Part shown: piece by piece, positions 864 through 61,618 of the stretch | Numbering within the stretch: the first letter of the stretch is position 1 | Layout of the letters: the number at the start of each line of letters is the position of its first letter | From: a virus | Taxonomy: Duplodnaviria > Caudoviricetes | IMG/VR virus record: IMGVR_UViG_3300044946_000158 | Location: 1 to 63,134 of that record | Length of the DNA stretch: 63,134 bases | Reading direction: 5' to 3' (one strand) | Position numbers and translations under genes: made by a program | The notes under the pieces: generated by a model | What the model was told of the DNA's origin: nothing | Databases searched by the model: none | The model's input: the letters and a program-made list of their open reading frames with translations, nothing else

Positions 864-1052
864 ATGGATACAACTAAAAACGGTGGACGACCTCGGCGGG
901 TGCGTTGCAAGCGCTGCGGATATTCTTGGATACCCACTAAATTTGGCTCGCCACCATTGCGATGCGCTAAGTGCCGGACGCCATACTGGTGGAAACGGAA
1001 GACCCGCCCCGCGAGTGGGCACGATCACGAGGAGGTACGAGCCAATGGCTAG
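864..1052 (+). CDS. small C4 zinc-finger protein
   Basis: CKRCGYSW...PLRCAKCRTPYW; ATG at 864 lies downstream of the promoter. Confidence 0.7.
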   Translation: MDTTKNGGRPRRVRCKRCGYSWIPTKFGSPPLRCAKCRTPYWWKRKTRPASGHDHEEVRANG

Positions 1053-2082
1053 AAGTGGATGTCTGTACGGGGGAACTGGAAGTAGAAAAACGACTCAACT
1101 CAAGTACCTCGCCCACTACATCGCCAAGACGACCGGTAAGTCGATGCTCCTGCTCTCGTGCGACGGTGGCGGCTGGGCTCCGTGTCAGCCCGAAGTAGAC
1201 GCCGGGATGATCCTGCCGTATCGCGTCGAGACCTCGACCATTCCGCTCGCCATCCTACGTAACATCTCGCGTGGCTACTGGCCGAAGGACGCAAGCGAAA
1301 CGCGGCCGAGCAAGATCAACCTCCTCCCGATCGACTGGACCCAAGTCGGCGGCGTGGCGGTGGAAGGCTGGACCTCCATCTCGCAGGTGGTGATGCGCTA
1401 TCTCCCGGACGCCGGCATCTCGGTCGGCGGCGAGGAACGCAACAAGCTCGGCGGGTTCTCGCAGGACATGTACGTCGAGGGCGAAATCAAGCGCTCGGAA
1501 TTCCGCAGCAACACGCGCGGCGATTACGGCTTCGTGCAGAATTTCCTCTACGGCCTAGTGATGAACTTCGGCGCATTACCGTGTGCATACGTGTGTCACA
1601 CCGCGCTGGAGTCCAAGACCGAGGACGACGACCGCTCGACCACCTTCGGCCCCGCGATATCCGGCAAGAAAGCGACCGCACAATGCGGCGCGTGGGTAGG
1701 CGACCTCATCCACGCGCAGGATTATTCGCAGCCGCGCACCGTGCGCGTCCCAGACCCGGCGGACGCGACCAAAACGGTGGACCAGGTCATTATGGACATG
1801 ACCGTGCGCTTTCATTACAAGAAGCATCCCGACCCGGCTACCGGCGTGCCATTCCCGGCTAAGCCTCGCGTTACGCCGGAGCAGATGGCCGCGCTGGAGA
1901 AACGATTCCCAGGGGGATACTTTGAGCCCACGTCGGACGGCCAGAACACGTTCGCCACGTATCTAGAAGAGGTGGACCGCCTCAGTGCATCACAGGGCGA
2001 TACTTTGAAAGGCTGGCGCGAGAAGATGGATTCCAAGCTGGGCCGAGGCCCGGTAGTGGTGGCGAAGGAGGCAGCGAAATGA
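1045..2082 (+). CDS. AAA_24/Sak4-like P-loop ATPase (recombination/annealing)
   Basis: SD GGAGG at 1031; LYGGTGSRKTT Walker A-like, VAVEG Walker B-like, TA-E, GPAISGK motifs; neighbours an SSB-like gene. Confidence 0.75.
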   Translation: MARSGCLYGGTGSRKTTQLKYLAHYIAKTTGKSMLLLSCDGGGWAPCQPEVDAGMILPYRVETSTIPLAILRNISRGYWPKDASETRPSKINLLPIDWTQVGGVAVEGWTSISQVVMRYLPDAGISVGGEERNKLGGFSQDMYVEGEIKRSEFRSNTRGDYGFVQNFLYGLVMNFGALPCAYVCHTALESKTEDDDRSTTFGPAISGKKATAQCGAWVGDLIHAQDYSQPRTVRVPDPADATKTVDQVIMDMTVRFHYKKHPDPATGVPFPAKPRVTPEQMAALEKRFPGGYFEPTSDGQNTFATYLEEVDRLSASQGDTLKGWREKMDSKLGRGPVVVAKEAAK

Positions 2083-2459
2083 GGTTGAGTGACGCAATTG
2101 CAACCGGAAGAGTGCTGATTAAGGATTTGAAGCCTGCGACGCTGAAGGGTTGCGTAATTGGAATGGCCTGCATGGGTGTAGGAACCGAGGCTTTGCTTAA
2201 AGCCGTGCAGATAGAAAGTTACTACGAAATTTATCACTACTGGCCTTGGTTACGAAATGCAACTCTTAGCCCAGTAGACGGTGGCGTACATGATGGGATG
2301 GAAGTAATTTACTCAATTTTTGACTTCCATGTGATGCGTAAAGGTGATTGGACCCTCGACCAACTCATCGACTGGGTCCGCAGCGTCGAGCCCGCCGAGC
2401 GCGAAGTCATCAATATTTCCATAGCATCACCTAATCTAAAAGAGGAGGCAATCAGATAA
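2079..2459 (+). CDS. hypothetical protein
   Basis: SD AAGGAGG, ATGA overlap; C-terminal WTLDQLIDWVRSVE. Confidence 0.75.
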   Translation: MRLSDAIATGRVLIKDLKPATLKGCVIGMACMGVGTEALLKAVQIESYYEIYHYWPWLRNATLSPVDGGVHDGMEVIYSIFDFHVMRKGDWTLDQLIDWVRSVEPAEREVINISIASPNLKEEAIR

Positions 2460-3196
2460 TGGCTACACCATTCGGAAGTCCCATTCAAGATGAACCGGAA
2501 CACCACGATGACCCGCAGCAGCAACTGGACGCGGAGGTCGCGGATCTCGATCCCAACGACCCGCGCCTCACCTCGGAAGCGTTAGACGTTAACCCCGAGG
2601 GCGACGCTTACGCCCGCCAGCCCCTGCCGCCGGACGCCAAGTATCGCGCCAAGCTGAAGCTGCTGAAGGTGAAAGACGCCACCGGAGCGGAGCACGATTT
2701 CCTGCCGAAGATGCACAAGAAATCGGGTACCGCCTACGCGTTTACCAGCATCGTCGCGACCATCGAGGATGCGAGCGGCAAATATGACGGGGTACCCGTG
2801 TACGACTCGTGGGTCGGCACCTTCATGAACAAGGACAAGTCCCACAAGGTCGGCACCATCATCCGGCTGCTGAAAGACCCGGCTGGCCAGCCGTGGGTCA
2901 AGCCCGGCGAGCGCCTGAATCACAAGCAGTGGATGGAGCGATTTGTGAAGGTCCTCGCGGGCGAGCCGGAGGTCGGGATTGAAACGCAGTGGGAGTGGTC
3001 CTGCCAGGCCTGTGGCAAGGCGGCTAAGGATAAGAACGAGGCCTATCCGAAGTCGATCACCGGCATGCATCGCTTCCCGCCGCTGCGAGGCGGGGGATTC
3101 GACCCGGAGATGCGCTGTGCCGTCAACCCGGCGCATGGATTCTCGCGTGCGCGGGTGCGCATGTCGCGCGTATTACCCTTGTCCGAGGTCAAGTAA
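2459..3196 (+). CDS. putative single-stranded DNA-binding protein (DUF669-like) with Cys/His zinc insert
   Basis: SD GAGGAGG; acidic N-terminus, PLPPDAKY motif typical of phage OB-fold SSBs that follow AAA_24 genes; CxxC...C...H. Confidence 0.55.
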   Translation: MATPFGSPIQDEPEHHDDPQQQLDAEVADLDPNDPRLTSEALDVNPEGDAYARQPLPPDAKYRAKLKLLKVKDATGAEHDFLPKMHKKSGTAYAFTSIVATIEDASGKYDGVPVYDSWVGTFMNKDKSHKVGTIIRLLKDPAGQPWVKPGERLNHKQWMERFVKVLAGEPEVGIETQWEWSCQACGKAAKDKNEAYPKSITGMHRFPPLRGGGFDPEMRCAVNPAHGFSRARVRMSRVLPLSEVK

Positions 3197-4976: not shown

Positions 4977-5111
4977 ATGGATAACTACAACTGGACGTTC
5001 TTAAGTAGGGTAGGAGAAGAACCGTGGAATGTTCTTAGTCCATTTATCCAAAGGTACTACGGAGAGATTGTTGCTGGGGCGATTGAGGCTTGGCTGGTGG
5101 TGATGGGATGA
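4977..5111 (+). CDS. small hypothetical protein (44 aa, MDNYNWTFLSR...)
   Basis: SD GGAGGAGG; TGA overlaps the helicase ATG; below the ORF-track cutoff. Confidence 0.55.
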   Translation: MDNYNWTFLSRVGEEPWNVLSPFIQRYYGEIVAGAIEAWLVVMG

Positions 5112-6445
5112 TACCGGAGCCCGACCAATTCGCCGCGCTGGACGCTCTGGTGGAAGACGACGCCGGAGAGACTCAGGCCGTTTCGTGCCATTTCATCAGC
5201 GGCAAAGCCGGGACCGGAAAAACGTTCAGCGTGGTGAAACGTTGCGCCGATGAGCCCGGCTGGGGCGTGCTATCCGCAACTACCGGCATCGCTTCGATTA
5301 ATCTCGGCAGCATTACGCTAAACAGTTTACTAAAGTACTTCAACACGGACAGTCTGCGCGATTCACTTCTCTCAGGGGCCTTGTCACGCATCATCCACCA
5401 GAAGTTGCAGCACGTGCGCAATATCGTAATCGACGAATTCAGCATGATGTCCGGTACGCAACTCGATTACCTGTATCGTGGAGTGGAAGCCGCGAACCGC
5501 TACACGTCGCGTCAAGGTAATCCACTTGGCATTGTGGGCGTCGGCGATTTCGGGCAACTTTGTCCTGTAAAGGAACCGTGGGCATTCGAAGCCCAGTGCT
5601 GGCTGCAGTTCGCCCGGAACACCACGCGTCTCGACAAGGTCTGGCGTCAGGACGGCGGCCCGTTTCTCGACGCGCTGAACCTCGTGCGCGAAGGCCACGG
5701 CGCGGACGCCGCCGATGTGTTGGACGCGGCAGGCATCACCTGGCACACCGCGCGCCACACCGATTTCGACGGCACCACCATCGTCCCGGTGAACTCGCTC
5801 GTGTCGACGCACAACGACGTGGCGCTGGACAGGGTGCCCGGCCCGCGATTCACGGTGACCTCCCGCCGCTGGGGGATGCAGCGCCGCGAGTGGGGCGAAA
5901 ATGTCAGGACGCACGAGTGGGGCATACCACCGCGCGCCGAGTTCAAGATTGGTGCCTATGTGATGATCCTCACGAATGACACGCCGCATTTCTCATATGT
6001 AAACGGCGATTGCGGGCATATTCGCGAGCACAACGATTACGGCTCTACCATCGAACTGGTGCGCAACGGCGAGGTCGTGTCGGTCCCGCGTCTGGTGCGC
6101 TCGGTCCCCGCCGACCGTCCCGACGATTACCCCCACGGCGGCCCCCGGCTCGATGACCGCGATTTCGTAGGACATCCGTTCGTGTCGACCAAGGGGAAGT
6201 ACATCGCGGGGCAGATTGAGTACGCACCGCTGCGGTTAGCGTATGCGTCGTCTTGTCATAAAAGCCAAGGGCTGTCTCTTGATCGGGCGCAGGTAGATAT
6301 ACGACATTCATTTTTCGGGTCGCCGGCCATGCTCTACGTCGCAATTTCCAGATGCCGCTCGCTCGCGGGTCTGCGTCTAGTGGGCTCGCGGGATAAATTT
6401 ATTCAACAATGTAAGGTAGATGAAAGGACGCGACCATGGCTCTGA
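5108..6445 (+). CDS. PIF1/RecD-like SF1B DNA helicase
   Basis: GKAGTGKT, IVIDEFSM, GDFGQLCPV, WRQ, NGDCG, PLRLAYA..HKSQG, YVAISR motifs. Confidence 0.92.
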   Translation: MIPEPDQFAALDALVEDDAGETQAVSCHFISGKAGTGKTFSVVKRCADEPGWGVLSATTGIASINLGSITLNSLLKYFNTDSLRDSLLSGALSRIIHQKLQHVRNIVIDEFSMMSGTQLDYLYRGVEAANRYTSRQGNPLGIVGVGDFGQLCPVKEPWAFEAQCWLQFARNTTRLDKVWRQDGGPFLDALNLVREGHGADAADVLDAAGITWHTARHTDFDGTTIVPVNSLVSTHNDVALDRVPGPRFTVTSRRWGMQRREWGENVRTHEWGIPPRAEFKIGAYVMILTNDTPHFSYVNGDCGHIREHNDYGSTIELVRNGEVVSVPRLVRSVPADRPDDYPHGGPRLDDRDFVGHPFVSTKGKYIAGQIEYAPLRLAYASSCHKSQGLSLDRAQVDIRHSFFGSPAMLYVAISRCRSLAGLRLVGSRDKFIQQCKVDERTRPWL

Positions 6446-6810: not shown

Positions 6811-7022
6811 GCGGCCAGTGGCCCAGCGACAACCCTCCGGTCATCCAGACGCCCAACGGCCCGGTCACCGAATGGTGTCGTAAGCAGGCCGCCTGGAATC
6901 AGCGCGACAACCCTGCCTTGCGCGAGCAGATCATCGCCATGATCGCCATCGAATTGCACCTCGGGTATGAGGACGCGCTACGGGAGCACAAGCGGCGATT
7001 TCCTGAAAGTTGGTCACTATGA
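6807..7022 (+). CDS. hypothetical protein
   Basis: ATGA overlaps at both ends. Confidence 0.6.
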   Translation: MSGQWPSDNPPVIQTPNGPVTEWCRKQAAWNQRDNPALREQIIAMIAIELHLGYEDALREHKRRFPESWSL

Positions 7023-7294
7023 GAGACGCAATCGGCAACAAACTCCACGAAGGCGCACTCCTGTGGATGCAGCAATGGGGCTGCATCGCCAAGGTCACGC
7101 GATTACACGAAGGCGGCCTGTCGGTTGTCTCCGGCAACTCGCGGGAGGTCTCGCCGGCGGTCATCACTGTGGAGATTCAGATTCCCATCTCCATCGAGCC
7201 GGGCAAGGCGGGGCAGGAACCGTTGCTCAATGGAATCCTGTGCGTGCGCGATCCGCAGAGCGAGCGGGTGCTAGAGAGTGTCGTCAAGCAATGA
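7019..7294 (+). CDS. hypothetical protein (RDAIGNKLHEG, SH3-like)
   Basis: ATGA overlaps at both ends. Confidence 0.65.
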   Translation: MRDAIGNKLHEGALLWMQQWGCIAKVTRLHEGGLSVVSGNSREVSPAVITVEIQIPISIEPGKAGQEPLLNGILCVRDPQSERVLESVVKQ

Positions 7295-10200
7295 CCGCGC
7301 GGTCTAAGCCGGATAGTTGTGTCGGATGCCCATGTTTTTCCATGGGCACGGATTTCAGCGAAATCGAAGGCACGGGCTCGCTCGGCGTGATGCTCGTGGG
7401 GGAGGCCAGTGGTGAGCATGAGCAACGCGATCAACTACCCTTTCGGCCATACGCACCGGCTGGTGGTGTACTCGAACGCGTCCTTCGTCGTATGGGGGTG
7501 GACCGCCAACAGTTGGCCACGACTAATTGCTTGCGCTGCCGCCCCCGGAATAATTGGCTTGAAGGTGCGCCGTGGGAGTTTTCGGCACTCACACAATGTC
7601 GTCCAAATCTGGATGCCGCAATTTCTAGTCGTAAGCCTCGTGCGATTGTTGCGCTGGGCGGCATCGCGACGCGAGAACTCACAGGACAAGCTGGCGAAGC
7701 GCGGGGCGTGACGCATCTCGCGGGATACGTGCTCCCGCTGATGGGAGGCCTACGCAAGGTCCGGCATCCCTGTACTGAGTCTAACGAAGCAGACGGCACG
7801 CATCATCCGCATTGCCTGCTGTGTGGCGGAGAGGGCTGGTGGGAAACCGAGGAGCCTGCTGCTGCCTCTAACGCTGTGCCCATTATCCCCAATTTTCATC
7901 CGGCATTTATCAGGCGCGGAAAAGCAAGTCACATCGGCGTCTTCTCGCGCATCCTGCAACGTGCCATCAATATCGCCAAGGGAACTGACAAGAATTGGAT
8001 ATGGAACGTGGACCCGGAGGTGCACAGTGCCCAGCTTGGATACCGAACTCGCCCGACTCGACAAGATGCCGAGGACTACGCAACTCGACTGGCTGCGCTA
8101 CCTGCGGAAGAACTTAGCTACGATATTGAAACATCTGAATCGGCTTCCCTTGACGAGGATGCCCGAGAAGGATTTACTAATACTCAACTGGAACTTGTGC
8201 AATTTTCTGCTGGGCCGCTCGGTAGCATCGCCATCCCCTGGCGCGACGAATTCAAGCCCACCATCCAGCGGCTCCTGCACTCCCCCAATCCCAAGTGTGG
8301 CCACAACGTCTGGCTGTTCGACAACAAAGTCCTCCGTGCGGCGGGCGTCCGTGAAGCGCTCGACCTCACGCCGAAGGGGATAATCCATGACACGCTCGCG
8401 ATGTTTCATCACTGGCAGCCTGACCTGCCTGCTCACCTTCAATTTGCTGCTTCGTTCGTCCAATTCCCGTTCCCTTGGAAACATCTCGCTGGCACTAACC
8501 TGCCTTTCTACGGCTGCGCTGATGTGGACGCTACTCTACGGCTATACGCCATGCTTGAGGCTACGCTGAAGCGCGACGGCATCTGGCAGGGCTACATGTC
8601 ACAGGTCTACGAGGTTAGGCCCGTGCTGGCCGCGATGGAATCCCGCGGCATGCCCATCGACGACGCTGCACGCGTGGCGCTCGGCCGTGAATTCGAAATC
8701 GCGCAGGCGGAAATCGGACGCAAAATCGCTGCGCAGGTCCCACCGGACTGTGGCCTGATAGACGTGTTCGCAGGCTTGAATCCCGAACTCCGCAAATGGT
8801 TCATCGACCACGGCACGCAGCCAAAGTTCTGGCAGAAACATCCGCAGGACGAAGTGTGTGAGATGATGGTCACTCCGCGCTACGACGATGAAGGCAAGTG
8901 CTATCACTACGAGTACCGCAAGGTAAAGGTCGCAGGCGTGGACGCAGCAGGCGAGCCGTGTGAGGTCGAGGAAAGCCGCTGGTGCCGGGTGTGGGACTTC
9001 AACCCCAACTCCCGCCCGCAAGTCATCGCCTACATGAACGCCAAAGGTCACCCGGTCCCGAAGGACCGCCATCGCGAGGACGACGATGGCAACAATCCCG
9101 AGACCACCGCCGAGAAGGAACTCCGCAGGCTCGCGAACAAGACCGGGGACACCTTCTACCTGGACGTGATCGAATATCGCGGGATGACCAAGCTCCGTGG
9201 GACCTACGTGGACGGCTTCGCGCCTGGACCCGACGGCTGCGTGCATACCACGTTTACGTTTGGCTCGGCCATCGCGCAACTGACCTCCCGTAATCCCAAC
9301 ACGCAGAACTTCCCGAAGCTGAAGCCGACCGTGGCGCTCGCGACGGCCATGCGCCGGATGGTAGCCGCGAAGCCAGGTAAGGTCATCACCGAGTGGGATT
9401 ACAAATCCTGTCACGTCCAGACCCTGGGCTTTCTCGCCGAGGACCTGAACTACATGCGCATGGGCCGTCTCGACATTCATTCCTTCGTCGCCGGCCATTT
9501 CCTGAACCTGTGGGATGGCCGCAAAATCATCCACGAATCCGACGACGAACTCCGCGCGCGCTTCAAATGGCTCAAGTCCGACCCCGAACGCAAGCGGGTG
9601 CGCGATGACCAAGCCAAGCACGCGATTCTCGGCATCGGCAACGGCCTCAAGGCTCGCGGCTTGTTCGAGCGCTACATGGAATCCTTCCCGCCGCGACCAT
9701 GTCCAGCATGCTCCGGCACTGGCAAGGTACCCGGCGTGCGCGGCCTGAAACATTGCCCGGCCTGCAAGGGCCTCGCGTTCATCCCCGGTCAGCGCATCGC
9801 GGAGGAAGTGCTGGAAATTTGCGAGCTATTATTCACGAAAGTGTTCGAGTTCCAGCGCCGCGAGGTCAAGGTCGCGCACGAGCAGCAATATCTCAAGACT
9901 GATTTCGGCCACCTGCGACGGTTCTATGAGGTATTCCGCTGGGACCCCCGCAAGGGCGCCATGGCTCCCGGCGACCAGCACGAGGAAGCCATCGCGTATC
10001 GCCTCGCGAACATTGCGCACGCGCATCTCCGCGAAGCCATGAAGGAACTTGGGCGACGTGGGCTCGACGAGAAGTATGGGATGTACAATCAAATCCACGA
10101 CGCTCTGCAATTCCATTTCGATGAGCGCCTCTTGGACGAGCACGTGCAGGAGATACGCGAGGTCCTAGTCGCGCCGTCGAAGGTCCTGCGGCATCCGACC

Positions 10201-10299
10201 ATCTGCCCCGATGGCTTGGTGATTGATGTGGAAGCCGCATACGGACGCACATGGGCAATGATGGAGCCGTTGAACGTGAAACAGGAGGCCGTCGCATGA
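7291..10299 (+). CDS. family-A DNA polymerase with N-terminal family-4 uracil-DNA-glycosylase-like domain and 3'-5' exonuclease
   Basis: UDG: CxxCxC, GEASGEHE..PF, TN..RCRP, VALGG.A, HPAF; Exo I-III: YDIET, GHN..FD, Y...D; Pol: NPNTQNFP, WDY, DIH, AK...G...G, QIHD. Start at 7291 chosen from the ATGA overlap. Confidence 0.9.
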   Translation: MTARSKPDSCVGCPCFSMGTDFSEIEGTGSLGVMLVGEASGEHEQRDQLPFRPYAPAGGVLERVLRRMGVDRQQLATTNCLRCRPRNNWLEGAPWEFSALTQCRPNLDAAISSRKPRAIVALGGIATRELTGQAGEARGVTHLAGYVLPLMGGLRKVRHPCTESNEADGTHHPHCLLCGGEGWWETEEPAAASNAVPIIPNFHPAFIRRGKASHIGVFSRILQRAINIAKGTDKNWIWNVDPEVHSAQLGYRTRPTRQDAEDYATRLAALPAEELSYDIETSESASLDEDAREGFTNTQLELVQFSAGPLGSIAIPWRDEFKPTIQRLLHSPNPKCGHNVWLFDNKVLRAAGVREALDLTPKGIIHDTLAMFHHWQPDLPAHLQFAASFVQFPFPWKHLAGTNLPFYGCADVDATLRLYAMLEATLKRDGIWQGYMSQVYEVRPVLAAMESRGMPIDDAARVALGREFEIAQAEIGRKIAAQVPPDCGLIDVFAGLNPELRKWFIDHGTQPKFWQKHPQDEVCEMMVTPRYDDEGKCYHYEYRKVKVAGVDAAGEPCEVEESRWCRVWDFNPNSRPQVIAYMNAKGHPVPKDRHREDDDGNNPETTAEKELRRLANKTGDTFYLDVIEYRGMTKLRGTYVDGFAPGPDGCVHTTFTFGSAIAQLTSRNPNTQNFPKLKPTVALATAMRRMVAAKPGKVITEWDYKSCHVQTLGFLAEDLNYMRMGRLDIHSFVAGHFLNLWDGRKIIHESDDELRARFKWLKSDPERKRVRDDQAKHAILGIGNGLKARGLFERYMESFPPRPCPACSGTGKVPGVRGLKHCPACKGLAFIPGQRIAEEVLEICELLFTKVFEFQRREVKVAHEQQYLKTDFGHLRRFYEVFRWDPRKGAMAPGDQHEEAIAYRLANIAHAHLREAMKELGRRGLDEKYGMYNQIHDALQFHFDERLLDEHVQEIREVLVAPSKVLRHPTICPDGLVIDVEAAYGRTWAMMEPLNVKQEAVA

Positions 10300-10544
10300 T
10301 ACGCACACTGCTACTTTCCGCACTATTATTTCTCATTCCCGTCACGCTGATGCTGGCCCCGTCGCTGGTGAGTCAAGAAAAACCCTCAGAGAATAAAATA
10401 CTTATCCTTTGCGCACCGACCGACCTTGAGTCACAAGAACATCCCGTGCGCTTGTCCAGCCAAAGAATAGAAGCCTGCCTTTATACCCTAAAAAGCGGAG
10501 AAACTGAGATTAACAAATGCGGACTTCCTACGGTAAAAAAATGA
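10296..10544 (+). CDS. small exported protein
   Basis: SD AGGAGG; N-terminal hydrophobic segment. Confidence 0.65.
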   Translation: MIRTLLLSALLFLIPVTLMLAPSLVSQEKPSENKILILCAPTDLESQEHPVRLSSQRIEACLYTLKSGETEINKCGLPTVKK

Positions 10545-11083
10545 AAACTCTACTTGTAATCGCATTGCTTGCTATGCTGGCCGGAACCGTCAAAGCGGAC
10601 CAAACCTGGACCTACGCCGGGAACGCTATCGACTACGCCATAGGCACGAATCCCGGTCCTATCGGCCTGAACCCCTGCGGCTGCGCTCTGGACGGCACGC
10701 TCACACTGGACGCCAATGACACGGTTACGTCCTACAGCTTCACGGTAGGCGCAGACACGCTGACGCAGTTCAATTCCACAGGCTTGCTGGGCAAGGACCC
10801 GTTCGCCGTCTTCAATCCAGCCGATAACTACTTCCGCTGGGCCTTAAATCTCATCGGCGCGGACGGCACCGTAATGCATTCGCAATTCGATGGCTCTGTG
10901 AGTGACGCGATGGATTGGTCATCCAGCGGACTGTTCGTCGAAGCTGATCCGGGCACGTGGGCGGACCCGCTCGCGACGCCTGAGCCCGGCACGCTCGCGG
11001 TCTCGGCAATTGCGCTGGCGCTATTCGTTCTGGTGTACTACCATTCCACTCGAAGGGAGTCTTACACATGCAGATGCAAATGA
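10541..11083 (+). CDS. PEP-CTERM-like sorted surface protein
   Basis: Signal peptide ending VKA|D; C-terminal TPEPGT + TM helix + basic residues (RR, RCK). Confidence 0.75.
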   Translation: MKTLLVIALLAMLAGTVKADQTWTYAGNAIDYAIGTNPGPIGLNPCGCALDGTLTLDANDTVTSYSFTVGADTLTQFNSTGLLGKDPFAVFNPADNYFRWALNLIGADGTVMHSQFDGSVSDAMDWSSSGLFVEADPGTWADPLATPEPGTLAVSAIALALFVLVYYHSTRRESYTCRCK

Positions 11084-20131: not shown

Positions 20132-20529
20132 TCGACCTCCAACCCACCGGGGTCGCCCATGACATATACAGGCTCGTCTAGTCGCTTCATTCCGCGTGCC
20201 TCGCACAACTTTTCCGAATGGCGATTGGCGGCGGTGGTAATCCATCCCCGTGCTTTCGCGTCAGTGAGAAACGTAAGCATCTCATCCGCGAGTTCTCCGG
20301 CGATAGTCGTGCCGCGATATTCCGGCCTCACATACAGAGGGCCGCAAAATGGGACCAGCTGGAACACATGGAACCCGATAATCTGGCCCGCTTCTTCCTT
20401 GACGAGAATGCGCGACGTGGCTCGATTAAGGCTCATCCATCCCCGCGACGCGAGCATCTCCTCGATAGCATCCCAGTCTTCCTGCGATGCGGTCGGCCCG
20501 TCTATCCAGCGCGTGGTTATGTCATTCAT
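20128..20529 (-). CDS. GNAT-fold acetyltransferase-like protein
   Basis: GPLYVRPEYRGTTIA acetyl-CoA motif A; lies between tail and ejection genes. Confidence 0.7.
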   Translation of the reverse strand: MNDITTRWIDGPTASQEDWDAIEEMLASRGWMSLNRATSRILVKEEAGQIIGFHVFQLVPFCGPLYVRPEYRGTTIAGELADEMLTFLTDAKARGWITTAANRHSEKLCEARGMKRLDEPVYVMGDPGGLEVE

Positions 20530-23315
20530 TTTATGGTCACCGTGATTTCCAGTCCCCCCGGCACAGTCAGCACATAATCCCCCTTGGCCAGTCCGGGAAG
20601 AGACACCATGGCCGCAGATAGCGGCATCTTGCACTTGGTCACGCCCGGCCCGTAGCTGCTGCAGGCCATCGCGAATACCCACGGCAACGGCGCCGGCACA
20701 GGACTCACCGCTACGCCTGTGCCGGTGAGCGTAGTGGAAGCCGTGGCGCTACTGGACCCATTGACCGTGAGTGTGGCGGTCTCGGCTCCCGCGAGGCTCG
20801 GCTTGAACGTCAGGATGATAATACACGTCTGACCCGCCGTCAGCACTAGTCCATTCGTGCAAGTTCCGGTCGCGGTATCGGTCCAGTCCGCAGCGTTCGT
20901 CCCCGACAGTACACTCTTCGGCGTGGCCAGCGTGACGCTCCCGGTGCCCGCGTTGGTCACCGTCGCAGTCGTGGCCGCGCTCACTTGCCCCACGGTTACC
21001 GCGCCGAATAACATGGTCGGCGTCGGCGCGATGGTCAGCACGAACGTGGGCGCTTGTCCGTTTACCGTCAGGCTGGCGCTGGCGGTCGCACTGGTAGCCG
21101 ACAGCGTCACTGTTGCTGATTCCGCTCCACCAGTACTGGGCGTAACCTGCACGCCTTTGTTGCAGGTCTGCCCCGGCGTAAGCACCTGTCCACCTTGGCA
21201 ATTGTTGGTCGCGGCACCTAATGAGAAATCCGCCGCATTGGGACCCGAGAACGTGGTCGTAACTGGCGCGGCCAAGGTCACGTTTATATTTCCCGTGTTG
21301 GTCAGCACGAAAACCTCGACCGCGCTGGTGGTACCCTGCGGCACCGTGCCGTAGCTCCAAGTCCCCGGTGTGAGGCTCATGGACGCGCTTCCCGCGCTGG
21401 TGCCCGTGCCCGTGAGGCTCACCGATCCCGAGGCGTTTCCGTTTATCGTTAGCGTGGCCGATTCCGCTGCCGTCGTCACCGGAGTGAACACCACTAGCAC
21501 CGTACAACTCCCACCGGGCGTCACCGTTCCGTTATTGGCGCAGGTCCCGCCCGAGCGCACGAAGTCTGCCGCGTTCGCACCGGAGAAGGTATAAAACGAT
21601 GCCGACAGCGTCAAGTTGGCGGTGCCAGAGTTCGTGACTGTGACCGTCAGTGGCGATGACGAGGTATTCTGTGTCTGGTTGCCGAACGCGACCGGACTAG
21701 GTGTGATGCTGACCGCCGGGGAGCCGCCACCGCTGCCGTAATTCACCGCTCCCACGGTAACCGTTCCGCTGCCACGAGCGTTTCCATTGATGTCCAGCGG
21801 CAGATACGTCGCCACCGCCGGGATGCCAGAGCCGCTCGCTAAGGAATTTAGATTCGTGCCCATGACTACCGCTGAGTTTCCAGGCACGAAGGTGGTGAGG
21901 TTCACGGAAGGATTGGTGCCGCTTAGTGAGTTGGCATCACAGGAACAGAAACTCTTCCAAGTGGTAAAGCTGGTAGTGAATCCGCCAGTATAAGCCCACT
22001 GCGCCAAAGGACTAGAGTAGTACAGATTGTAGTTAGCGGTCGGAGCGTTAGTGTTGCCACCATTATAAAAATAGTATCCGCCGCCGCTTTGCAGGATGTT
22101 GTTTTCCTCCGTCCAGCCGGTGCCGAATTCCATATTGAATAGCGGCCATGCGTTGTTGTTATTCCCGCCCGACCCGGCGTCGATGATGGTATTGTTGAGC
22201 AGGTATCCGTTATTGATTCCCAGCGGAGCCACGACGCCGTTGGCCGTCGCCACATCCGTATTGGTTTTGTAGAAAACGTTGTTGAATACCCACCACGGAG
22301 CCATTGTTCCGCCGCTGCCACCGTTGTTGTTTTCCAAGTAAATCATCGAGGTGGGATGCAGGCCCACGTCCCCGATACTGAAATTGTCGAAGAAGGTCAG
22401 ATTCCCGGCGAACGCCGCCCCTGGATGTCCGGTGAAGGGATGGAAGAAATTGTGGTGGTAATTATTGGTGACATCGTCCCAGTTGCGCGAGGCGTTGTAG
22501 GTGTTGTGGTCCACCTGCATGTTGGTCAGTACTTTCGTGCCGGTGTCGGTCGGTCCGCCCTCGATGGCTTGGTTGGCGTTATTGAAAGTGTTCCCGGTAA
22601 TGACCAGATTGGATTCGCCGCCTGTGAACGCGAAGAATATGCATACGTCGCAATCGGTAAAAGTATTTCCGGGTCCGACAGTAACGTTGCTGCCGCCTTG
22701 CAGGACCCGAACTCCCATGCAGTCGTCGCTGCCGTTGGAGCACACGCTGTCGGAAGTGGTGTTGTTGTGCACGTACACGGGGCCAAGATGTAGATGTTCA
22801 ATTTGAATGTTCGATGAGCCAAAGGCATCAACCATAGAGCTAATTTGCTGATTGGCGAGGCCCGTGCCGTTGGCGGTATTTCGGACGATACCGTTCGTGC
22901 CGCCGTCGATCACCACCCAGTTGTGCCCGTTGGTCTCGATAGCTCCTGGCGTGCCGTTACTAGTAGAGAAATACGGGGCCTGTACGATGGCGTTGGTGTC
23001 CCATTTGAGGGTAATCAGGTGTCCACTAGTGCCATCACCCTGAAAAGAAAATACGTTGGTAGCTCCTGCCGCAAAGGTGAATGTTCCGCAGATAAGTACT
23101 GTTGTGCCCGGCCCGATCTGCCCCGCACCAGTGCCCCAATTCGCAGACGTGTTGAAGAACGCTGGCGTTTGCACGCTAGTGGTACACGCGCCGGATGCCG
23201 CACCGGACTGCGTAATATAAATGTTCGCGGCCTGCCCACGCGCTCCCGCCGCCGCTGCGAGTGCCACTGCAACGAGTACGAAGGCCTTAAGACTGCAGGA
23301 AGCAGCTTGACTCAT
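20526..23315 (-). CDS. right-handed beta-helix protein with three ASH/choice-of-anchor-D Ig domains and a signal peptide
   Basis: Signal ...AAAAGARG|Q; Asn-ladder beta-helix; 3x FG...VTN.G...SG.NAADF...C...PG..C. Confidence 0.8.
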   Translation of the reverse strand: MSQAASCSLKAFVLVAVALAAAAGARGQAANIYITQSGAASGACTTSVQTPAFFNTSANWGTGAGQIGPGTTVLICGTFTFAAGATNVFSFQGDGTSGHLITLKWDTNAIVQAPYFSTSNGTPGAIETNGHNWVVIDGGTNGIVRNTANGTGLANQQISSMVDAFGSSNIQIEHLHLGPVYVHNNTTSDSVCSNGSDDCMGVRVLQGGSNVTVGPGNTFTDCDVCIFFAFTGGESNLVITGNTFNNANQAIEGGPTDTGTKVLTNMQVDHNTYNASRNWDDVTNNYHHNFFHPFTGHPGAAFAGNLTFFDNFSIGDVGLHPTSMIYLENNNGGSGGTMAPWWVFNNVFYKTNTDVATANGVVAPLGINNGYLLNNTIIDAGSGGNNNNAWPLFNMEFGTGWTEENNILQSGGGYYFYNGGNTNAPTANYNLYYSSPLAQWAYTGGFTTSFTTWKSFCSCDANSLSGTNPSVNLTTFVPGNSAVVMGTNLNSLASGSGIPAVATYLPLDINGNARGSGTVTVGAVNYGSGGGSPAVSITPSPVAFGNQTQNTSSSPLTVTVTNSGTANLTLSASFYTFSGANAADFVRSGGTCANNGTVTPGGSCTVLVVFTPVTTAAESATLTINGNASGSVSLTGTGTSAGSASMSLTPGTWSYGTVPQGTTSAVEVFVLTNTGNINVTLAAPVTTTFSGPNAADFSLGAATNNCQGGQVLTPGQTCNKGVQVTPSTGGAESATVTLSATSATASASLTVNGQAPTFVLTIAPTPTMLFGAVTVGQVSAATTATVTNAGTGSVTLATPKSVLSGTNAADWTDTATGTCTNGLVLTAGQTCIIILTFKPSLAGAETATLTVNGSSSATASTTLTGTGVAVSPVPAPLPWVFAMACSSYGPGVTKCKMPLSAAMVSLPGLAKGDYVLTVPGGLEITVTIK
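20716..21720 (-). repeat. three tandem ~110-aa ASH-type Ig domain repeats (coding)
   Basis: Repeated SGxNAAD(F/W), CxxGxxLxxGxxC and ExATLT motifs. Confidence 0.75.
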
Positions 23316-59726: not shown

Positions 59727-59936
59727 ATGTGCCCTTCTAAGCTACAGACGCCTACGCCTACGACGCTGGTCGACACCCTGACCTATTCCTCCTACGCCCA
59801 CAACCGCCAGCTGACCCCATACGTAACGCCCGAGCAATGGCGGGTAGTGTTCGGTGAGCGCACCGCGGCACTGGAGGCGAGGTATCAGGACGAATGCCGC
59901 GAGGTGATGTCGCGGGCGCTGGAGGGACGGCTGTGA
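59727..59936 (+). CDS. hypothetical protein
   Basis: SD GAGGAGG. Confidence 0.7.
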   Translation: MCPSKLQTPTPTTLVDTLTYSSYAHNRQLTPYVTPEQWRVVFGERTAALEARYQDECREVMSRALEGRL

Positions 59937-61618
59937 CGACCAAGATATTCGTGGACCGATCGCGCGTTTTGGATTTCCAAAGTTGCCCGCGGCGTCGGTT
60001 CTTGGCGTATCACCAAGATAACCTTGGGATTACCAGTGTTAACAAACCTCTTCCCTTGGCTGTGGGCTCGGCGGTGCATTCCGGCCTCGCAGTGCTGTTA
60101 CAGGCCGCGTCCGTGGTCCCCGGCGCCCACAACGATCTTATGGCGATGGCCGCGTTCGAACAGGATGCAGTGAATGCCGCACTCGCTGACTTCGCCCAGT
60201 ACGCGGGCCACCTAGACCTCGACCTCGCCGAATCGACCGCCCTAGCGCAGCCGGGCGCGTCACTGGGCGACCATCTGGCCGCGTCCCTCGGCATGTCCCC
60301 GGAAGACGCGGGCCTCGGCGAGCTGACCGAGCGCGTCGGCCGGGCGCGGAGTGAGTTTGACCAATTCCTGTACGTGGAACAGTCGGCGCTGGTGGAGGCG
60401 ATGGTCCGAGCGTACGCCCGCCGTCGCCTGCGTCCCCTGCTCGAACAGTTCGAGGTACTGGAAGTGGAGCGCGAGGGGGAGTGGCTGCTGTCACAATGGG
60501 AGACAAATGCGTCCTTATTGGGGCCAGAGTTCGAGGGATGGTGCAATTGCGGCCATTCCCACGATTTGCACGCGTCTGGTGCCCCCTACGCCTGTACTGT
60601 CTTGATGTGCGAGTGTGAAGCGTATGACAAGGACATCACGTCGCTGTGGTTCATGTCCCGCCCCGACGCCCTCTTACTCGAACGCGACACCCGCCAGCTC
60701 TACCTCCTCTCGTTCAAGACCGCCGCGACCTGGGACATCCGCAAGGAGCGCGACGCGCAGCATGACATGCAGGGATTGTCGGAGGGCGTCGAGGTGGAAC
60801 GCAGGCTCGCGAACGCGTGGACGGCCTTGCGCAAAGAAGTAGTCATGGACAGGGGGGACTTGACGCTAGAGGTTTGCAAGGCATACGATCTGAAGCCTGC
60901 GACAGCTAATTTTCTATTCGCGTCCCCGGCCCCGCCCCGCATCCACGCCATCCGCTACGAGTTCATGCTCAAAGGCCCCCGACGCCGCGACAAGGATCTC
61001 TCGCAGCGACTCTCACTCGACGCCTATTCGCAGGCCAGCCATCTGGTGCGCGCCTACTACTCCCCCGGCATGACCTCCGCCGACGAACAATGGAACTGGT
61101 CGTGGCAATATCTCAAGCCCGGCGGCGAAACCTCCAACCTCTATTACAAGGCGTGGAAGGCGGCGCCAGTGTGGGAGCATATGCCCATTCGCGCGTGGAT
61201 CGACCGCCTCGATGCGCACGTGGAAACAATGGGCGAGGAGGGCTCGTCGCTTGGCTGGACGGGACCCGCGCAGGCCACCGGCGGCACCAGTGAGCATCCC
61301 TTGGACTCCGTGTTTCTGCCTCCCCTCGTCATCTATCGCAACGATGACGACCTCCGCGACTGGCTGGAGCAGACGGAAGCGCAGGAGCGCCGGGTGGCGG
61401 AAGGCGTGGCGGCGGTGCAGGCGGCGGGGGACGAAGGCGAGCGCCGGCACCTGCTCAACATCCATTTCGAGCAGCACCGCAAGGAGTGCGTATATCCGTC
61501 GCCGTGCCAGTTCGAAAAAATATGTTATGGTGGCGAATCGCTGCGAGCCGACCCGCTCGGCTCGGGACTGTTTGAATTGCGGGTGCCGAATCATCCGGTA
61601 GAATTGAGCAAGCCGTGA
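59933..61618 (+). CDS. Cas4/AddB-like PD-(D/E)XK exonuclease with Fe-S staple and Zn-finger insert
   Basis: SR...FQSCPRR, GSAVH, EVLEVE, RPD, SFKT, Q, C....PC.F..IC. Confidence 0.8.
   Translation: MTTKIFVDRSRVLDFQSCPRRRFLAYHQDNLGITSVNKPLPLAVGSAVHSGLAVLLQAASVVPGAHNDLMAMAAFEQDAVNAALADFAQYAGHLDLDLAESTALAQPGASLGDHLAASLGMSPEDAGLGELTERVGRARSEFDQFLYVEQSALVEAMVRAYARRRLRPLLEQFEVLEVEREGEWLLSQWETNASLLGPEFEGWCNCGHSHDLHASGAPYACTVLMCECEAYDKDITSLWFMSRPDALLLERDTRQLYLLSFKTAATWDIRKERDAQHDMQGLSEGVEVERRLANAWTALRKEVVMDRGDLTLEVCKAYDLKPATANFLFASPAPPRIHAIRYEFMLKGPRRRDKDLSQRLSLDAYSQASHLVRAYYSPGMTSADEQWNWSWQYLKPGGETSNLYYKAWKAAPVWEHMPIRAWIDRLDAHVETMGEEGSSLGWTGPAQATGGTSEHPLDSVFLPPLVIYRNDDDLRDWLEQTEAQERRVAEGVAAVQAAGDEGERRHLLNIHFEQHRKECVYPSPCQFEKICYGGESLRADPLGSGLFELRVPNHPVELSKP

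What the first reader, a model, noticed from the sequence alone, without database searches (positions are those of the whole stretch)
9250..10110. Family-A polymerase with a completely rewired nascent-base-pair pocket
Seen by manual alignment to E. coli Pol I. TGRLSS becomes IAQLTS (R668Q, codon 9277). DYSQIELR becomes DYKSCHVQ (steric gate E710H, 9412). KAINFGLIYG becomes KHAILGIGNG (N761I, F762L, Y766N at 9640, plus one extra residue between R and K). AINAPMQG becomes AIAYRLAN (N845A, Q849A). HDE becomes HDA. The metal ligands D705/D882, K758, H734, H881 and all three Exo motifs are retained. Established: R668, E710, Y766 and Q849 are near-invariant and form one network that checks the minor groove and excludes 2'-OH sugars. 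Inference: concerted change with an intact catalytic core suggests a new specificity rather than decay, such as rNTP use or self-priming (no primase is visible), a modified sugar or base, or lesion/abasic-site filling coupled to the fused UDG. This is the best candidate for an undescribed system.
Basis: partly seen in the sequence, partly recalled or inferred. Interest (0 to 1): 0.9.

Follow-up and report, generated by a model that had tools for sequence, protein, structure and literature searches.

The report
Phage DNA polymerase, rewired active site
A complete 63-kb phage genome encodes a uracil-glycosylase/proofreading/DNA-polymerase fusion from a large group of uncultured-phage polymerases, for which I found no description, in which several amino acids regarded as universal in this enzyme family are replaced by a different, equally conserved set.

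Summary
The gene at 7291-10299 (+) is a family-4 UDG + 3'-5' exonuclease + family A polymerase fusion.

Profile alignments to Taq and E. coli Pol I confirm these changes:
- R668->Q771
- E710->H816
- F762->L888
- Y766->N892
- E883->A1046
- one extra residue between R754 and K758

The catalytic Asp residues, K758, H734, H881 and the exonuclease motifs are kept. N845 aligns with Y1011 and Q849 with N1015, a conservative change.

The changes are not decay. In 256 relatives with all key columns (about 31-78% identical by the search listings), His replaces the steric-gate Glu in 256 and Gln replaces the Arg in 250. These proteins form one clade with SH-aLRT 100. All 9 in-clade viral loci are Q+H. 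None of 67 other phage PolA loci is.

Known UDG-PolAs (N4, SP-10) keep R and E. I found no description of this clade.

What the altered pocket does is untested. No primase or base-modification gene was found, and canonical relatives also mostly lack a detectable primase. My reading is a new PolA subfamily that is probably still a dNTP-dependent replicase.

The parts
7291..10299 (+). UDG-exonuclease-PolA fusion gene. The ORF is open from 6967, but the likely start is ATG 7291 (MTARSKPDSCVGC...).
   Evidence: ORF and translation. The family consensus begins MxxxKPxxCxGC. Pfam PF03167 + PF00476; phrog_17 DNA polymerase, E 6.7e-45. AF2 model of residues 109-1110: pLDDT 92.1, pTM 0.89.
7291..7986 (+). 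Family-4 uracil-DNA glycosylase domain, with GEASG (GEAPG-type) and HPA (HPS-type) motifs and four aligned Fe-S cysteines
   Evidence: PF03167, 58.1 bits against a cut-off of 24.3. phmmer to solved family-4 UDGs, 4zbx E 9.7e-14, with aligned CxxC, CRP, C and HP[AS] positions. Consensus VGEAxGxxE and HPS across the family.
8089..8646 (+). 3'-5' exonuclease domain with DEDDy residues D386, E388, D452, Y515 and D519
   Evidence: These residues are invariant in the 82-sequence alignment A3 (D278, E280, D344, Y407, D411 in its numbering). Codons located. Foldseek match to Klenow fragment across exo + pol.
9265..9315 (+). TGR-type motif SAIAQLTSRNPNTQNFP; Q771 (nt 9277-9279) takes the place of R668
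   Evidence: Aligned to Taq TATGRLSSSDPNLQNIP and to E. coli TATGRLSSTDPNLQNIP. Gln in 263 of 273 rows and in 250 of 256 complete proteins.
9397..9420 (+). Motif A, DYKSCHVQ; D811 is the metal ligand D705, and H816 (nt 9412-9414) takes the place of the steric-gate E710
   Evidence: Asp in 264 of 264 rows and His in 264 of 266. His in 256 of 256 complete proteins.
9601..9645 (+). Motif B / O-helix, RDDQAKHAILGIGNG. R879 = R754 with one extra residue, K884 = K758, L888 = F762, N892 = Y766.
   Evidence: hhalign. AF2 helix 765-783 in model numbering ends just before N892. The Y766 position reads N 135, F 95, L 23, Y 3 in 256 proteins.
9700..9771 (+). Two CxxCxGxG (DnaJ-type) zinc-finger motifs inserted in the fingers subdomain between motif B and motif 6
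   Evidence: Weak Pfam hits: Anti-TRAP E 6e-4 and DnaJ_CXXCXGXG E 0.017, both below their cut-offs. C912 and C930 located. Two CxxC are present in 109 of 131 tabulated proteins with Asn at the Y766 position, against 2 of 94 tabulated with Phe (30 commonest classes).
9982..10011 (+). Motif 6, EEAIAYRLAN. Y1011 is opposite N845, N1015 opposite Q849 and E1007 opposite R841.
   Evidence: the register is anchored by the Pro in the AFLPAN subclade. Asn in 217 of 261 rows at 1015.
10096..10104 (+). Motif C, HDA (H881, D882, E883->A)
   Evidence: His in 260 of 261 rows and Asp in 261 of 261. The third position reads S 175, A 59, E 12, D 11.
5090..6445 (+). Dda/PIF1-like helicase, conserved upstream neighbour
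   Evidence: phrog_325, E 1.3e-56. PF13604 and PF05970. Found upstream of the polymerase gene in 7 of 10 related loci.
883..2082 (+). Sak4-like ssDNA-annealing ATPase, part of the conserved replication/recombination module
   Evidence: phrog_124, E 9.1e-7. tblastn hits in 7 of 10 related loci.
2459..3196 (+). Conserved 245-aa protein of unknown family in the module. An N4-gp45-like SSB is only a guess from gene order.
   Evidence: No Pfam or PHROG hit. tblastn hits in 6 of 10 related loci. N4 gene order.
59894..61618 (+). Probable PD-(D/E)XK (Cas4-like) nuclease; lies next to the module across the terminal repeat
   Evidence: ESM Atlas feature search: first hits score 0.95 to PDDEXK_1 clusters. 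No Pfam or PHROG hit. tblastn hits in 6 of 10 related loci.

Best explanation
The gene encodes the only DNA polymerase detected in a complete 63-kb phage genome with terminal repeats. [quoted passage not shown]

It belongs to a large, monophyletic, so far uncultured clade of phage UDG-PolAs. In this clade the polar network around the primer terminus and incoming nucleotide has been exchanged as a set. In Klenow that network is R668, E710, Y766, N845 and Q849, with R841 nearby. Here it reads Gln, His, Asn/Phe/Leu, Tyr/Phe and Asn. The two metal-binding aspartates, the triphosphate ligands (R754, K758, H734) and H881 are kept.

Shown:
- the domain architecture and fold;
- the residue equivalences;
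- clade-wide conservation and a single origin of the signature.

Inferred:
- The enzyme is an active, template- and primer-dependent dNTP polymerase that replicates the phage together with the neighbouring Dda-like helicase, Sak4-like protein and nuclease.
- His816 takes over the steric-gate role of Glu, since its imidazole is bulky enough to clash with a 2'-OH.
- The paired loss of a positive charge (Arg->Gln) and a negative charge (Glu->His) is a compensated swap within one electrostatic cluster.
- Gln771 and Asn1015 still read the minor groove, with shorter reach.
- The Glu710-Tyr766 hydrogen-bond pair is replaced or dropped (His816 with Asn892 in the window's subclade; Phe or Leu elsewhere).
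- The UDG domain excises uracil from the template ahead of the active site, as shown for SP15-like UDG-PolAs.
For: Architecture and fold:
- PF03167 and PF00476 both score over their cut-offs.
- The AF2 model has pLDDT 92.1 and pTM 0.89.
- Foldseek's best hits are Klenow (1kfs, E 2.7e-23) and the Bst large fragment (TM 0.80 on the target).

Residue equivalences.

Conservation across about 31-78% identity (identities from the listings):
- His at the gate in 256 of 256 proteins.
- Gln at the TGR position in 250 of 256.
- D811, H838, R879, K884, H1044, D1045 and the DEDDy residues are invariant in 82 sequences.

Single origin:
- All 35 in-clade rows sit on one branch (SH-aLRT 100, length 0.67) with the six signature columns removed.
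- 9 of 9 in-clade viral loci are Q+H. Of 67 other loci, 57 are R+E and none is Q or H.

Essential role:
- The genome is complete, with direct terminal repeats and CheckV 100%.
- A six-frame PF00476 search finds only this gene.
- 60 ORFs scanned gave no other polymerase.
- 30 intein-like insertions in 266 relatives sit in the TGR-type motif, motif A, motif B and the exonuclease domain. Inteins typically sit at critical sites of essential enzymes (my own knowledge).

Network idea:
- A Bst polymerase review states that Q797, R615, E658 and D830 (Klenow Q849, R668, E710, D882) lie close together and interact electrostatically (PMC10520511, passages read).
- Klenow Y766F behaves like wild type, and the E710-Y766 hydrogen bond plays a minor role in closed-complex stability (PMC3715850, passages read).

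UDG mechanism by analogy: PMC13697223 (abstract, sections 15, 16 and 21 read).
Against: - No biochemistry exists for any member, so activity and dNTP specificity are inferred.
- In Klenow, E710A and E710Q are mutators, and E710Q incorporates slowly (PMC3715850). A non-Glu gate is therefore not neutral in the canonical background.
- Hohlbein et al. call E710 and Y766 universally conserved in A-family polymerases (same paper). A functional consequence of replacing both, plus R668, is quite possible.
- I could not inspect model coordinates. The proposed His816-Asn892 and Gln771-His816 contacts are not verified, even in silico.
- The His side chain could also hydrogen-bond to a 2'-OH rather than exclude it.
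Confidence: 0.6

Rival explanations
1. Relaxed or inverted sugar selection. With Glu710, Tyr766 and Arg668 gone, the enzyme incorporates ribonucleotides, or starts chains de novo as a primase-polymerase. In the window's subclade the fingers zinc-finger insert would help hold single-stranded template, as zinc-binding domains do in primases.
For: - The gate, its Tyr partner and the O4'/minor-groove Arg are all replaced.
- No primase was detected in the window. The 60 ORFs scanned gave none. Six-frame searches for Prim-Pol and Toprim_2 in five relatives, and for DNAG_N in the window plus four relatives, were all 0 of 5.
- Two CxxCxGxG motifs sit in the fingers.
- An A-family polymerase can act as a primase with a partner protein (CCPol-MP; PMC7581432, abstract and passages).
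Against: - The lack of a detectable primase is shared by related UDG-PolA phages with canonical R/E: 0 of 5 have Prim-Pol, 0 of 5 have DNAG_N and 1 of 5 has Toprim_2.
- CCPol keeps E710 and F762, so priming does not require losing the gate.
- The zinc finger is absent from the Phe and Leu subclades, which carry the same Q/H signature.
- A conserved proofreading exonuclease and a UDG fit a DNA replicase.
- His is bulkier than the Gly or Ala that open the gate in known rNTP-accepting variants (my own knowledge).
Confidence: 0.12
2. Adaptation to a non-canonical nucleotide. The altered pocket accepts a modified base or sugar that the phage uses in its DNA, as DpoZ does for 2-aminoadenine or the SPO1/SP15-like enzymes do for 5-hydroxymethyl-dUTP.
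For: - Other UDG-PolA groups (SPO1, SP-10, SP-15, YerA41) belong to phages with modified thymidine (PMC10201439, passages; PMC13697223, section 15).
- Most genes of this phage have no recognisable family, so an unknown modification pathway cannot be excluded.
- The replaced residues read the minor groove and the sugar, a side of the nucleotide that no known phage modification touches (my own knowledge).
Against: - No thymidylate-synthase/hydroxymethylase-like gene (0 of 5 relatives; window not included).
- No PurZ-like gene (0 of 5) and no TGT/DpdA-like gene (0 of 5) in the window plus four relatives.
- SP15-like polymerases handle their modified DNA while the ddGTP sugar packs against the canonical O-helix Phe, described there with reference to the E710 steric gate; protein contacts are in the minor groove, leaving the major groove free.
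- Hundreds of clade members were assembled from ordinary metagenomes. That argues against hypermodification of the kind that blocked sequencing of YerA41 and RP13. This last point is an inference.
Confidence: 0.12
3. Specialisation for synthesis across the abasic sites that its own UDG domain makes. The pocket would have lost the geometric checks (Arg668, Tyr766, Asn845) so that the replicase can pass template AP sites without stalling.
For: - The UDG catalytic motifs and Fe-S cysteines are conserved.
- SP15-like UDG-PolAs excise template dU and bypass the AP site, preferentially with dA (PMC13697223, abstract and discussion).
- Mutations of R668, E710 and N845 lower Klenow fidelity (PMC10520511).
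Against: - SP15-like enzymes carry out this bypass; their paper describes the O-helix Phe with reference to the E710 steric gate and reports no change to these motifs.
- The nearest outgroup UDG-PolAs keep R and E, so the Q/H set is not needed for a UDG fusion.
- Unlike SP15-like phages, this phage and four relatives have no PolX or ligase to finish repair (0 of 5 each).
Confidence: 0.12
4. Decay or alignment artefact. The polymerase domain is inactive, or the canonical residues are present but were misaligned.
For: - HMMER alone could not align motif B to Taq or E. coli Pol I.
Against: - Three alignment methods agree on R668Q and E710H.
- hhalign covers motif B at probability 99.85.
- The replacement residues are themselves nearly invariant across 256 proteins.
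- The catalytic Asp, Lys, Arg and His residues are invariant.
- It is the only polymerase found in a complete genome.
Confidence: 0.02

Closest known systems
N4-like UDG-PolA (cluster #17 of Czernecki et al. 2023, PMC10201439; N4 gp39)
   Same: - N-terminal family-4 UDG-like domain + 3'-5' exonuclease + PolA in one chain.
- Similar replication neighbours: a DNA helicase (annotated so in N4), a Sak4-like protein and an exonuclease.
   Different: - N4 gp39 keeps the TGR Arg and the gate Glu (SGRLSS, DFASLED).
- Its UDG has lost the catalytic residues (paper passage), whereas they are kept here.
- N4 falls in a separate 15-row clade on the tree.
- N4 has a primase and a virion RNA polymerase.
SPO1/SP-10-like and SP15-like UDG-PolAs (YerA41, phiLo; Missoury et al. 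2026, PMC13697223)
   Same: - UDG domain with catalytic motifs kept, fused to a proofreading PolA.
- The likely mechanism is the same: uracil is removed from the template ahead of the polymerase site.
   Different: - The SP-10 polymerase has TGRLSS and DYSQLELR.
- SP15-like enzymes are about 1200-1300 aa, with Inserts 1 and 2 and a C-terminal domain. They co-occur with PolX, ligase and thymidine-modification genes. None of these was found here.
- The family HMM scores these groups far below clade members (SP10 at E 3.6e-31 against at least 555 bits for clade members).
Bacterial DNA polymerase I large fragment (Klenow, Bst, Klentaq)
   Same: - Best structural matches.
- Same exo + pol fold, and the same metal ligands, K758/R754/H734/H881 equivalents and DEDDy exonuclease residues.
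   Different: - R668Q, E710H, Y766N, N845Y, Q849N, R841E, E883A, and +1 residue in the O-helix.
- An added UDG domain, and a zinc-finger insert in the fingers.
DpoZ polymerases of Z-genome phages (clusters #18 and #19)
   Same: A phage PolA clade defined partly by an unusual residue at the Y766 (B4) position. It is Phe in DpoZ (paper passage) and Phe in 95 of 256 proteins here.
   Different: - The passage I read names only the B4 Phe as the substitution unique to the DpoZ clusters.
- No PurZ-like gene was found here.
- DpoZ has no UDG fusion, as far as I recall.

Membership tests
Family A DNA polymerase (PF00476) | Profile match over the curated cut-off | tested here: met
   72.1 bits against a cut-off of 34.3, E 5.3e-20. 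The six-frame search is also over the cut-off.
Family A DNA polymerase (PF00476) | Klenow-like exo + palm/fingers/thumb fold | tested here: met
   AF2 pLDDT 92.1. Foldseek: 1kfs E 2.7e-23; Bst large fragment TM 0.80 on the target.
Family A DNA polymerase (PF00476) | Catalytic Asp of motif A and motif C; Lys and Arg of motif B | tested here: met
   D811, D1045, K884 and R879 are invariant in 82 sequences and aligned. The Arg sits one residue further from the Lys than in Pol I.
Family A DNA polymerase (PF00476) | Steric-gate Glu (E710) hydrogen-bonded to motif B Tyr (Y766), described as universally conserved (PMC3715850) | tested here: not met
   H816 and N892 in the window. His in 256 of 256 proteins; the Tyr position reads N 135, F 95, L 23, Y 3.
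Family A DNA polymerase (PF00476) | Arg of the TGR motif (R668) and Gln of motif 6 (Q849) reading the minor groove | tested here: not met
   Q771 (250 of 256 proteins) and N1015 (217 of 261 rows). Both keep an amide group.
Family 4 uracil-DNA glycosylase (PF03167) | Profile match over the cut-off, GE[AG]xG and HP[SA] motifs, four Fe-S cysteines | tested here: met
   58.1 bits against 24.3. The alignment to 4zbx and 1l9g shows GEASG, HPA and the four Cys positions. The motifs are conserved in the family consensus. Activity is not testable here.
N4-like UDG-PolA (cluster #17) | Groups with N4 gp39; UDG catalytic residues lost; canonical PolA motifs | tested here: not met
   Separate clades on the tree. 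UDG motifs are kept here. N4 keeps R and E.
SP15-like UDG-PolA | Inserts 1 and 2 and a C-terminal domain; co-occurring PolX, ligase and thymidine-modification genes | tested here: not met
   - The protein is 1002 aa against 1306 aa for YerA41 and 134.5 kDa expected for phiLo.
- PolX: 0 of 5 genomes.
- Ligase: 0 of 5.
- Thymidylate-synthase family: 0 of 5 relatives.
- The inserts were not compared residue by residue.
CCPol-MP type A-family primase-polymerase | Exonuclease-less A-family polymerase with a small partner protein that confers de novo priming | not testable with these tools
   An exonuclease domain is present here. CCPol keeps E710 and F762. Priming would need an assay.

The most novel reading that the evidence does not exclude
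A whole clade of phage replicases (at least the 150 listed clusters at 50% identity, perhaps about 450) has abandoned the sugar and minor-groove checks of family A polymerases. These are the gate Glu, its Tyr partner, the TGR Arg, and the motif 6 Asn and Gln. They would have done so because they polymerise something other than plain dNTPs onto a primer. Possibilities are ribonucleotide-containing or sugar/minor-groove-modified DNA, or self-primed chains, which in the window's subclade would be aided by the fingers zinc finger.
Probability: 0.15. Interest if true: 0.9.

Novelty: new variant of a known kind. Interest (0 to 1): 0.65.

Why it matters
E710, Y766 and R668 are textbook fixed points of family A polymerases. 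They are used to explain sugar discrimination, fidelity checkpoints and minor-groove proofreading, and they guide polymerase engineering.

A large natural clade keeps the catalytic core and proofreading but uses Gln/His/Asn-Phe-Leu/Tyr-Phe/Asn instead. That shows a second viable solution for this pocket.

It also gives ready-made natural variants for testing what each contact contributes. Because residues that read the minor groove and the sugar are changed, these enzymes may be useful starting points for polymerases that accept unnatural substrates.

The clade adds a further UDG-PolA subfamily to the N4-like, SPO1-like and SP15-like groups. It also flags a class of abundant uncultured phages, possibly of Acidobacteriota, whose replication module has no recognisable primase.

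Tried and rejected
- Plain phmmer and hmmsearch could not align motif B to Taq or E. coli Pol I. hhalign was needed.
- tblastn against 50,697 deposited phage genomes found 119 records, none at 60% identity or more and at most 29.5% among the 40 listed. There is therefore no cultured member to lean on.
- Exact look-up of six family proteins returned no names or accessions.
- The genome-collection scan gave only three hits. Two are contigs of 1-1.6 kb binned with Terracidiphilus and Terriglobia MAGs and one is in a Salinisphaerales MAG. This is a weak host hint, not a result.
- Primase hypothesis. PHROG and Pfam scans of 60 window ORFs found no primase. Six-frame searches for Prim-Pol and Toprim_2 in five relatives (window not included) and DNAG_N in the window plus four relatives also found none. 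The control on five canonical-motif UDG-PolA phages was nearly as empty, so I dropped 'no primase' as evidence for self-priming.
- The 574-aa ORF at 59894-61618, a primase candidate by size, looks like a PD-(D/E)XK nuclease.
- Modification hypothesis. Thymidylate synthase (five relatives, window not included), PurZ-like, TGT/DpdA, PolX and ligase (window plus four relatives each) were all 0 of 5.
- divPolA1 and divPolA2 of Yutin et al. (PMC11348598, passages) were considered and rejected. divPolA1 has an inactivated exonuclease and a truncated thumb. divPolA2 belongs to 80-85 kb barbaviruses.
Residue contacts in the AF2 model could not be measured, and no DNA/dNTP complex was modelled.
- Figures and supplements of the papers were not visible. 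The motif logos of Czernecki et al. Figure 3 and the SP15-like alignment (their Supplementary Fig. S1) could bear on whether any described cluster shares the Q/H signature. My statement that none does rests on three things: the text passages read, N4 and SP-10 checked directly, and 67 outgroup loci.
- That I found no description of this clade rests on the searches only.

Full report
WHAT IS THERE

The window is a complete virus record of 63,134 bp with direct terminal repeats and a CheckV completeness of 100%. An ORF is open from 6967 to 10299 on the + strand. Relatives begin at the equivalent of ATG 7291 (consensus MxxxKPxxCxGC), so the protein is most likely 1002 aa.

Pfam finds a family-4 UDG domain (PF03167, 58.1 bits, cut-off 24.3) and a family A polymerase domain (PF00476, 72.1 bits, cut-off 34.3). 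PHROGs places it in phrog_17, 'DNA polymerase' (E 6.7e-45).

An AlphaFold2 model built on 82 relatives is confident (pLDDT 92.1, pTM 0.89). Its best Foldseek matches are Klenow fragment (1kfs, E 2.7e-23) and the Bst large fragment (TM 0.80 on the target). The protein is therefore a three-domain UDG / 3'-5' exonuclease / polymerase chain.

CHECK OF THE OBSERVATION

I aligned the family to canonical enzymes in three ways:
- a 26-sequence profile against all PDB chains (Taq E 4.9e-19);
- a broader family HMM against E. coli Pol I taken from the K-12 record (E 8.7e-43);
- hhalign of 116 family rows against E. coli Pol I (probability 99.85, E 7.6e-30, 375 columns).

The equivalences follow; all three alignments show the first two and the last, add R841/N845/Q849, and motif B rests on hhalign alone:
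- TATGRLSS / SAIAQLTS, so R668 -> Q771.
- DYSQIELR / DYKSCHVQ, so D705 = D811 and E710 -> H816.
- DIH, so H734 = H838.
- QR-RSAKAINFGLIYG / VRDDQAKHAILGIGNG, so R754 = R879 with one inserted residue, K758 = K884, F762 -> L888 and Y766 -> N892.
- ERAAINAPMQG / EEAIAYRLANI, so R841 -> E1007, N845 -> Y1011 and Q849 -> N1015.
- VHDE / IHDA, so H881 and D882 are kept and E883 -> A1046.

The subclade that reads AFLPAN keeps the Pro of AINAPMQ, which fixes the register. The exonuclease residues D386/E388, D452 and Y515/D519 are present and invariant in 82 relatives.

IS IT CHANCE OR DECAY?

It is neither. A word-indexed search returned 274 relatives, and the 120 listed are 55-78% identical apart from the protein itself. 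An exhaustive HMMER scan of 1.84 billion cluster representatives returned 446 clusters at E <= 1e-30, and the 150 listed go down to 31% identity.

In the 256 of these 266 proteins that cover all key columns:
- The gate position is His in 256.
- The TGR position is Gln in 250 (Ser 4, Gly 1, Arg 1).
- The Y766 position reads N 135, F 95, L 23, Y 3.

Column counts over all aligned rows agree: Q 263 of 273, H 264 of 266, D811 264 of 264, K884 262 of 264, R879 260 of 263, N1015 217 of 261, H1044 260 of 261, D1045 261 of 261.

In IMG/VR, 76 loci encoding PolA relatives were fetched. Nine score 555-1062 bits with the family HMM and the other 67 score at most 169 bits. All nine are Q+H. Of the 67:
- 57 are R+E.
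- 6 have R with the gate unaligned.
- 2 show a one-column shift of GR, with E.
- 1 is S+E.
- 1 is unaligned.
- None has Gln or His at these positions.

I built a maximum-likelihood tree of 96 polymerase-domain rows with the six signature columns removed. It puts all 35 clade rows on one branch (SH-aLRT 100, length 0.67). The tree used the quick method with LG+G4. One row (L082) was dropped for too few columns, and several outgroup rows are long or gappy. N4 gp39 sits in a different 15-row clade, and SP-10 pairs with another outgroup locus. The sister group of the clade is unresolved.

The nearest outgroups are also UDG-exo-PolA fusions (HMM coverage from the UDG region onward). The UDG fusion therefore appears to be older than the Q/H switch, though with the sister group unresolved this order is an inference.

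SUBTYPES

The window belongs to an 'Asn type'. This type has Asn at the Y766 position and His right after K884. It also has two CxxCxGxG motifs (C912, C930; nt 9700-9771) in a fingers insert of about 112 aa between motif B and motif 6. Among the 30 commonest signature classes tabulated, 109 of the 131 Asn-position proteins have the two CxxC motifs.

A 'Phe type' has KP/R-x-ILG-x-GFG, AFLPAN, no zinc motif in 92 of the 94 tabulated, and an insert of about 65 aa. A smaller 'Leu type' shares the Q/H core.

CONTEXT

Related genomes share a module made of:
- a probable PD-(D/E)XK nuclease (59894-61618; ESM Atlas 0.95);
- a Sak4-like protein (883-2082);
- a 245-aa protein (2459-3196);
- a Dda-like helicase (5090-6445; phrog_325 E 1.3e-56);
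- the polymerase.

The rest of the genome is mostly unrecognisable. I could name a terminase, a portal, a major head protein, an HNH endonuclease, an endolysin and DUF932.

None of the following was found in the genomes searched (searches covered five relatives without the window; searches covered the window plus four relatives; the window's 60 scanned ORFs gave none of them either):
- a second polymerase;
- a primase (Prim-Pol, Toprim_2, DNAG_N);
- a thymidylate-synthase-like enzyme;
- a PurZ-like enzyme;
- TGT/DpdA;
- PolX;
- an ATP-dependent ligase.

As a control, five UDG-PolA phages with canonical motifs were nearly as empty for primases: 1 of 5 for Toprim_2 and 0 of 5 each for Prim-Pol and DNAG_N. 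Absence of a recognisable primase therefore says nothing specific about the altered pocket.

HOW IT PROBABLY WORKS

Shown:
- A conserved, confidently folded replicase-type enzyme with all catalytic and triphosphate-binding residues.
- An intact proofreading site and an apparently intact Fe-S UDG.
- It is the only polymerase found in a complete genome.
- Thirty intein-like insertions among 266 relatives sit in the exonuclease domain, directly after GQLS, after SRNPN, in motif A and in motif B. Pfam intein/Hint domains were flagged on two of these proteins.

Inferred: it is the phage's replicative, primer- and template-dependent DNA polymerase.

The replaced residues belong to one interacting set. 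A Bst review notes that the equivalents of Q849, R668, E710 and D882 lie together and interact electrostatically, and that R668/Q849 read the minor groove (PMC10520511, passages). Hohlbein et al. describe E710 and Y766 as universally conserved and hydrogen-bonded. They report that Y766F is wild-type-like and that E710A and E710Q are mutators (PMC3715850, passages).

Arg->Gln removes a positive charge and Glu->His removes a negative one, so the pair looks like a compensated exchange. Gln771 and Asn1015 keep amide donors. With the Glu gone, the Tyr hydroxyl is no longer needed, which explains Phe or Leu at that position, or Asn as a new partner for His.

I expect His816 to act as the steric gate. 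The UDG most likely works on the template ahead of the active site, as in the SP15-like enzymes (PMC13697223; abstract, sections 15, 16 and 21).

I give this reading 0.6. Relaxed sugar choice or self-priming, a non-canonical nucleotide, and AP-site bypass specialisation each get about 0.12. Decay gets 0.02.

COMPARISON WITH WHAT IS KNOWN

Czernecki et al. sorted PolAs into 19 clusters and state that the crucial catalytic residues are strictly conserved in every subfamily. The only UDG-fused cluster among them is N4-like, with an inactivated UDG. SPO1, SP-10 and SP-15 are noted as unclustered UDG-PolAs (PMC10201439, passages).

Missoury et al. add the SP15-like group, with cryo-EM structures. 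N4 gp39 and the SP-10 polymerase, checked here directly, keep R and E. CCPol keeps E710 and F762. divPolA1 and divPolA2 are different proteins.

No deposited phage genome holds a clade member. I found no paper describing a PolA clade with a His gate or a Gln in the TGR motif. Figures and supplements were not visible, so a logo or table showing it could have escaped me.

VERDICT

The 'new specificity' part remains open and has no positive evidence.

I classify this as a new variant of a known kind, namely a new UDG-PolA subfamily with a non-canonical but conserved nucleotide pocket. Interest is 0.65. It contradicts a 'universally conserved' statement for a model enzyme family and is directly testable at the bench. 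The most likely outcome, however, is an ordinary DNA replicase built with a different set of contacts.

Noticed in passing
family proteins P0050, P0070, P0088, P0100, P0113, P0124, P0131, P0181, P0220 and others (not in the window): There are 30 intein-like insertions of 136-357 aa among 266 relatives, starting with Cys or Ser and ending in HN + Cys/Ser. They recur at a few sites: the exonuclease domain, directly after GQLS of the TGR-type motif, after SRNPN, in motif A, and in motif B before ILGIG. The window's gene has none.
   Followed up: partly
window 9700-9771: Two CxxCxGxG (DnaJ-type) zinc-finger motifs are inserted in the polymerase fingers. They are almost confined to the subclade with Asn at the Y766 position. 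Their role is unknown.
   Followed up: partly
window 10517-11083 (+): A 188-aa ORF has an N-terminal signal-like segment and a C-terminal PEP-CTERM-like tail (PEPGTLAV..., a hydrophobic stretch, then RRE), directly downstream of the polymerase. This would fit a host with an exosortase system. It had no PHROG hit.
   Followed up: no
L083, L084 (genome contigs): The only close genome-collection hits are contigs of 1.0 and 1.6 kb, binned in Terracidiphilus and Terriglobia MAGs (52% and 47% identity). Together with 59% GC, this is a weak hint that the host is an Acidobacteriota member.
   Followed up: no
window 6967-7290: The polymerase ORF is open for 108 codons upstream of the likely start at ATG 7291. 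This Arg/Gly-rich extension has no counterpart in the family consensus. The stored gene call (985 aa) starts later still, inside the UDG CxxC region, so the published gene start is probably wrong.
   Followed up: partly
window 53827-54627 (+): A DUF932 protein (PF06067, E 1.6e-41; phrog_12094, E 3.2e-80) lies in the early region. Its function is unknown.
   Followed up: no
L037, L052, L056 (IMG/VR loci): A separate group of phage PolAs reads DY(S/K)Q(L/I)EQC in motif A and PRT(S/G)(R/S)(W/Y)S in the TGR region. L037 appears to have Ser in place of the TGR Arg while keeping the gate Glu.
   Followed up: no
window 20526-23315 (-): A 929-aa protein carries several Ig-like/ASH-type domains (Cep192_D4, HYDIN/VesB-like Ig) and a hydrolase-like PHROG hit. 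It is probably a tail fibre or host-surface-binding protein.
   Followed up: no
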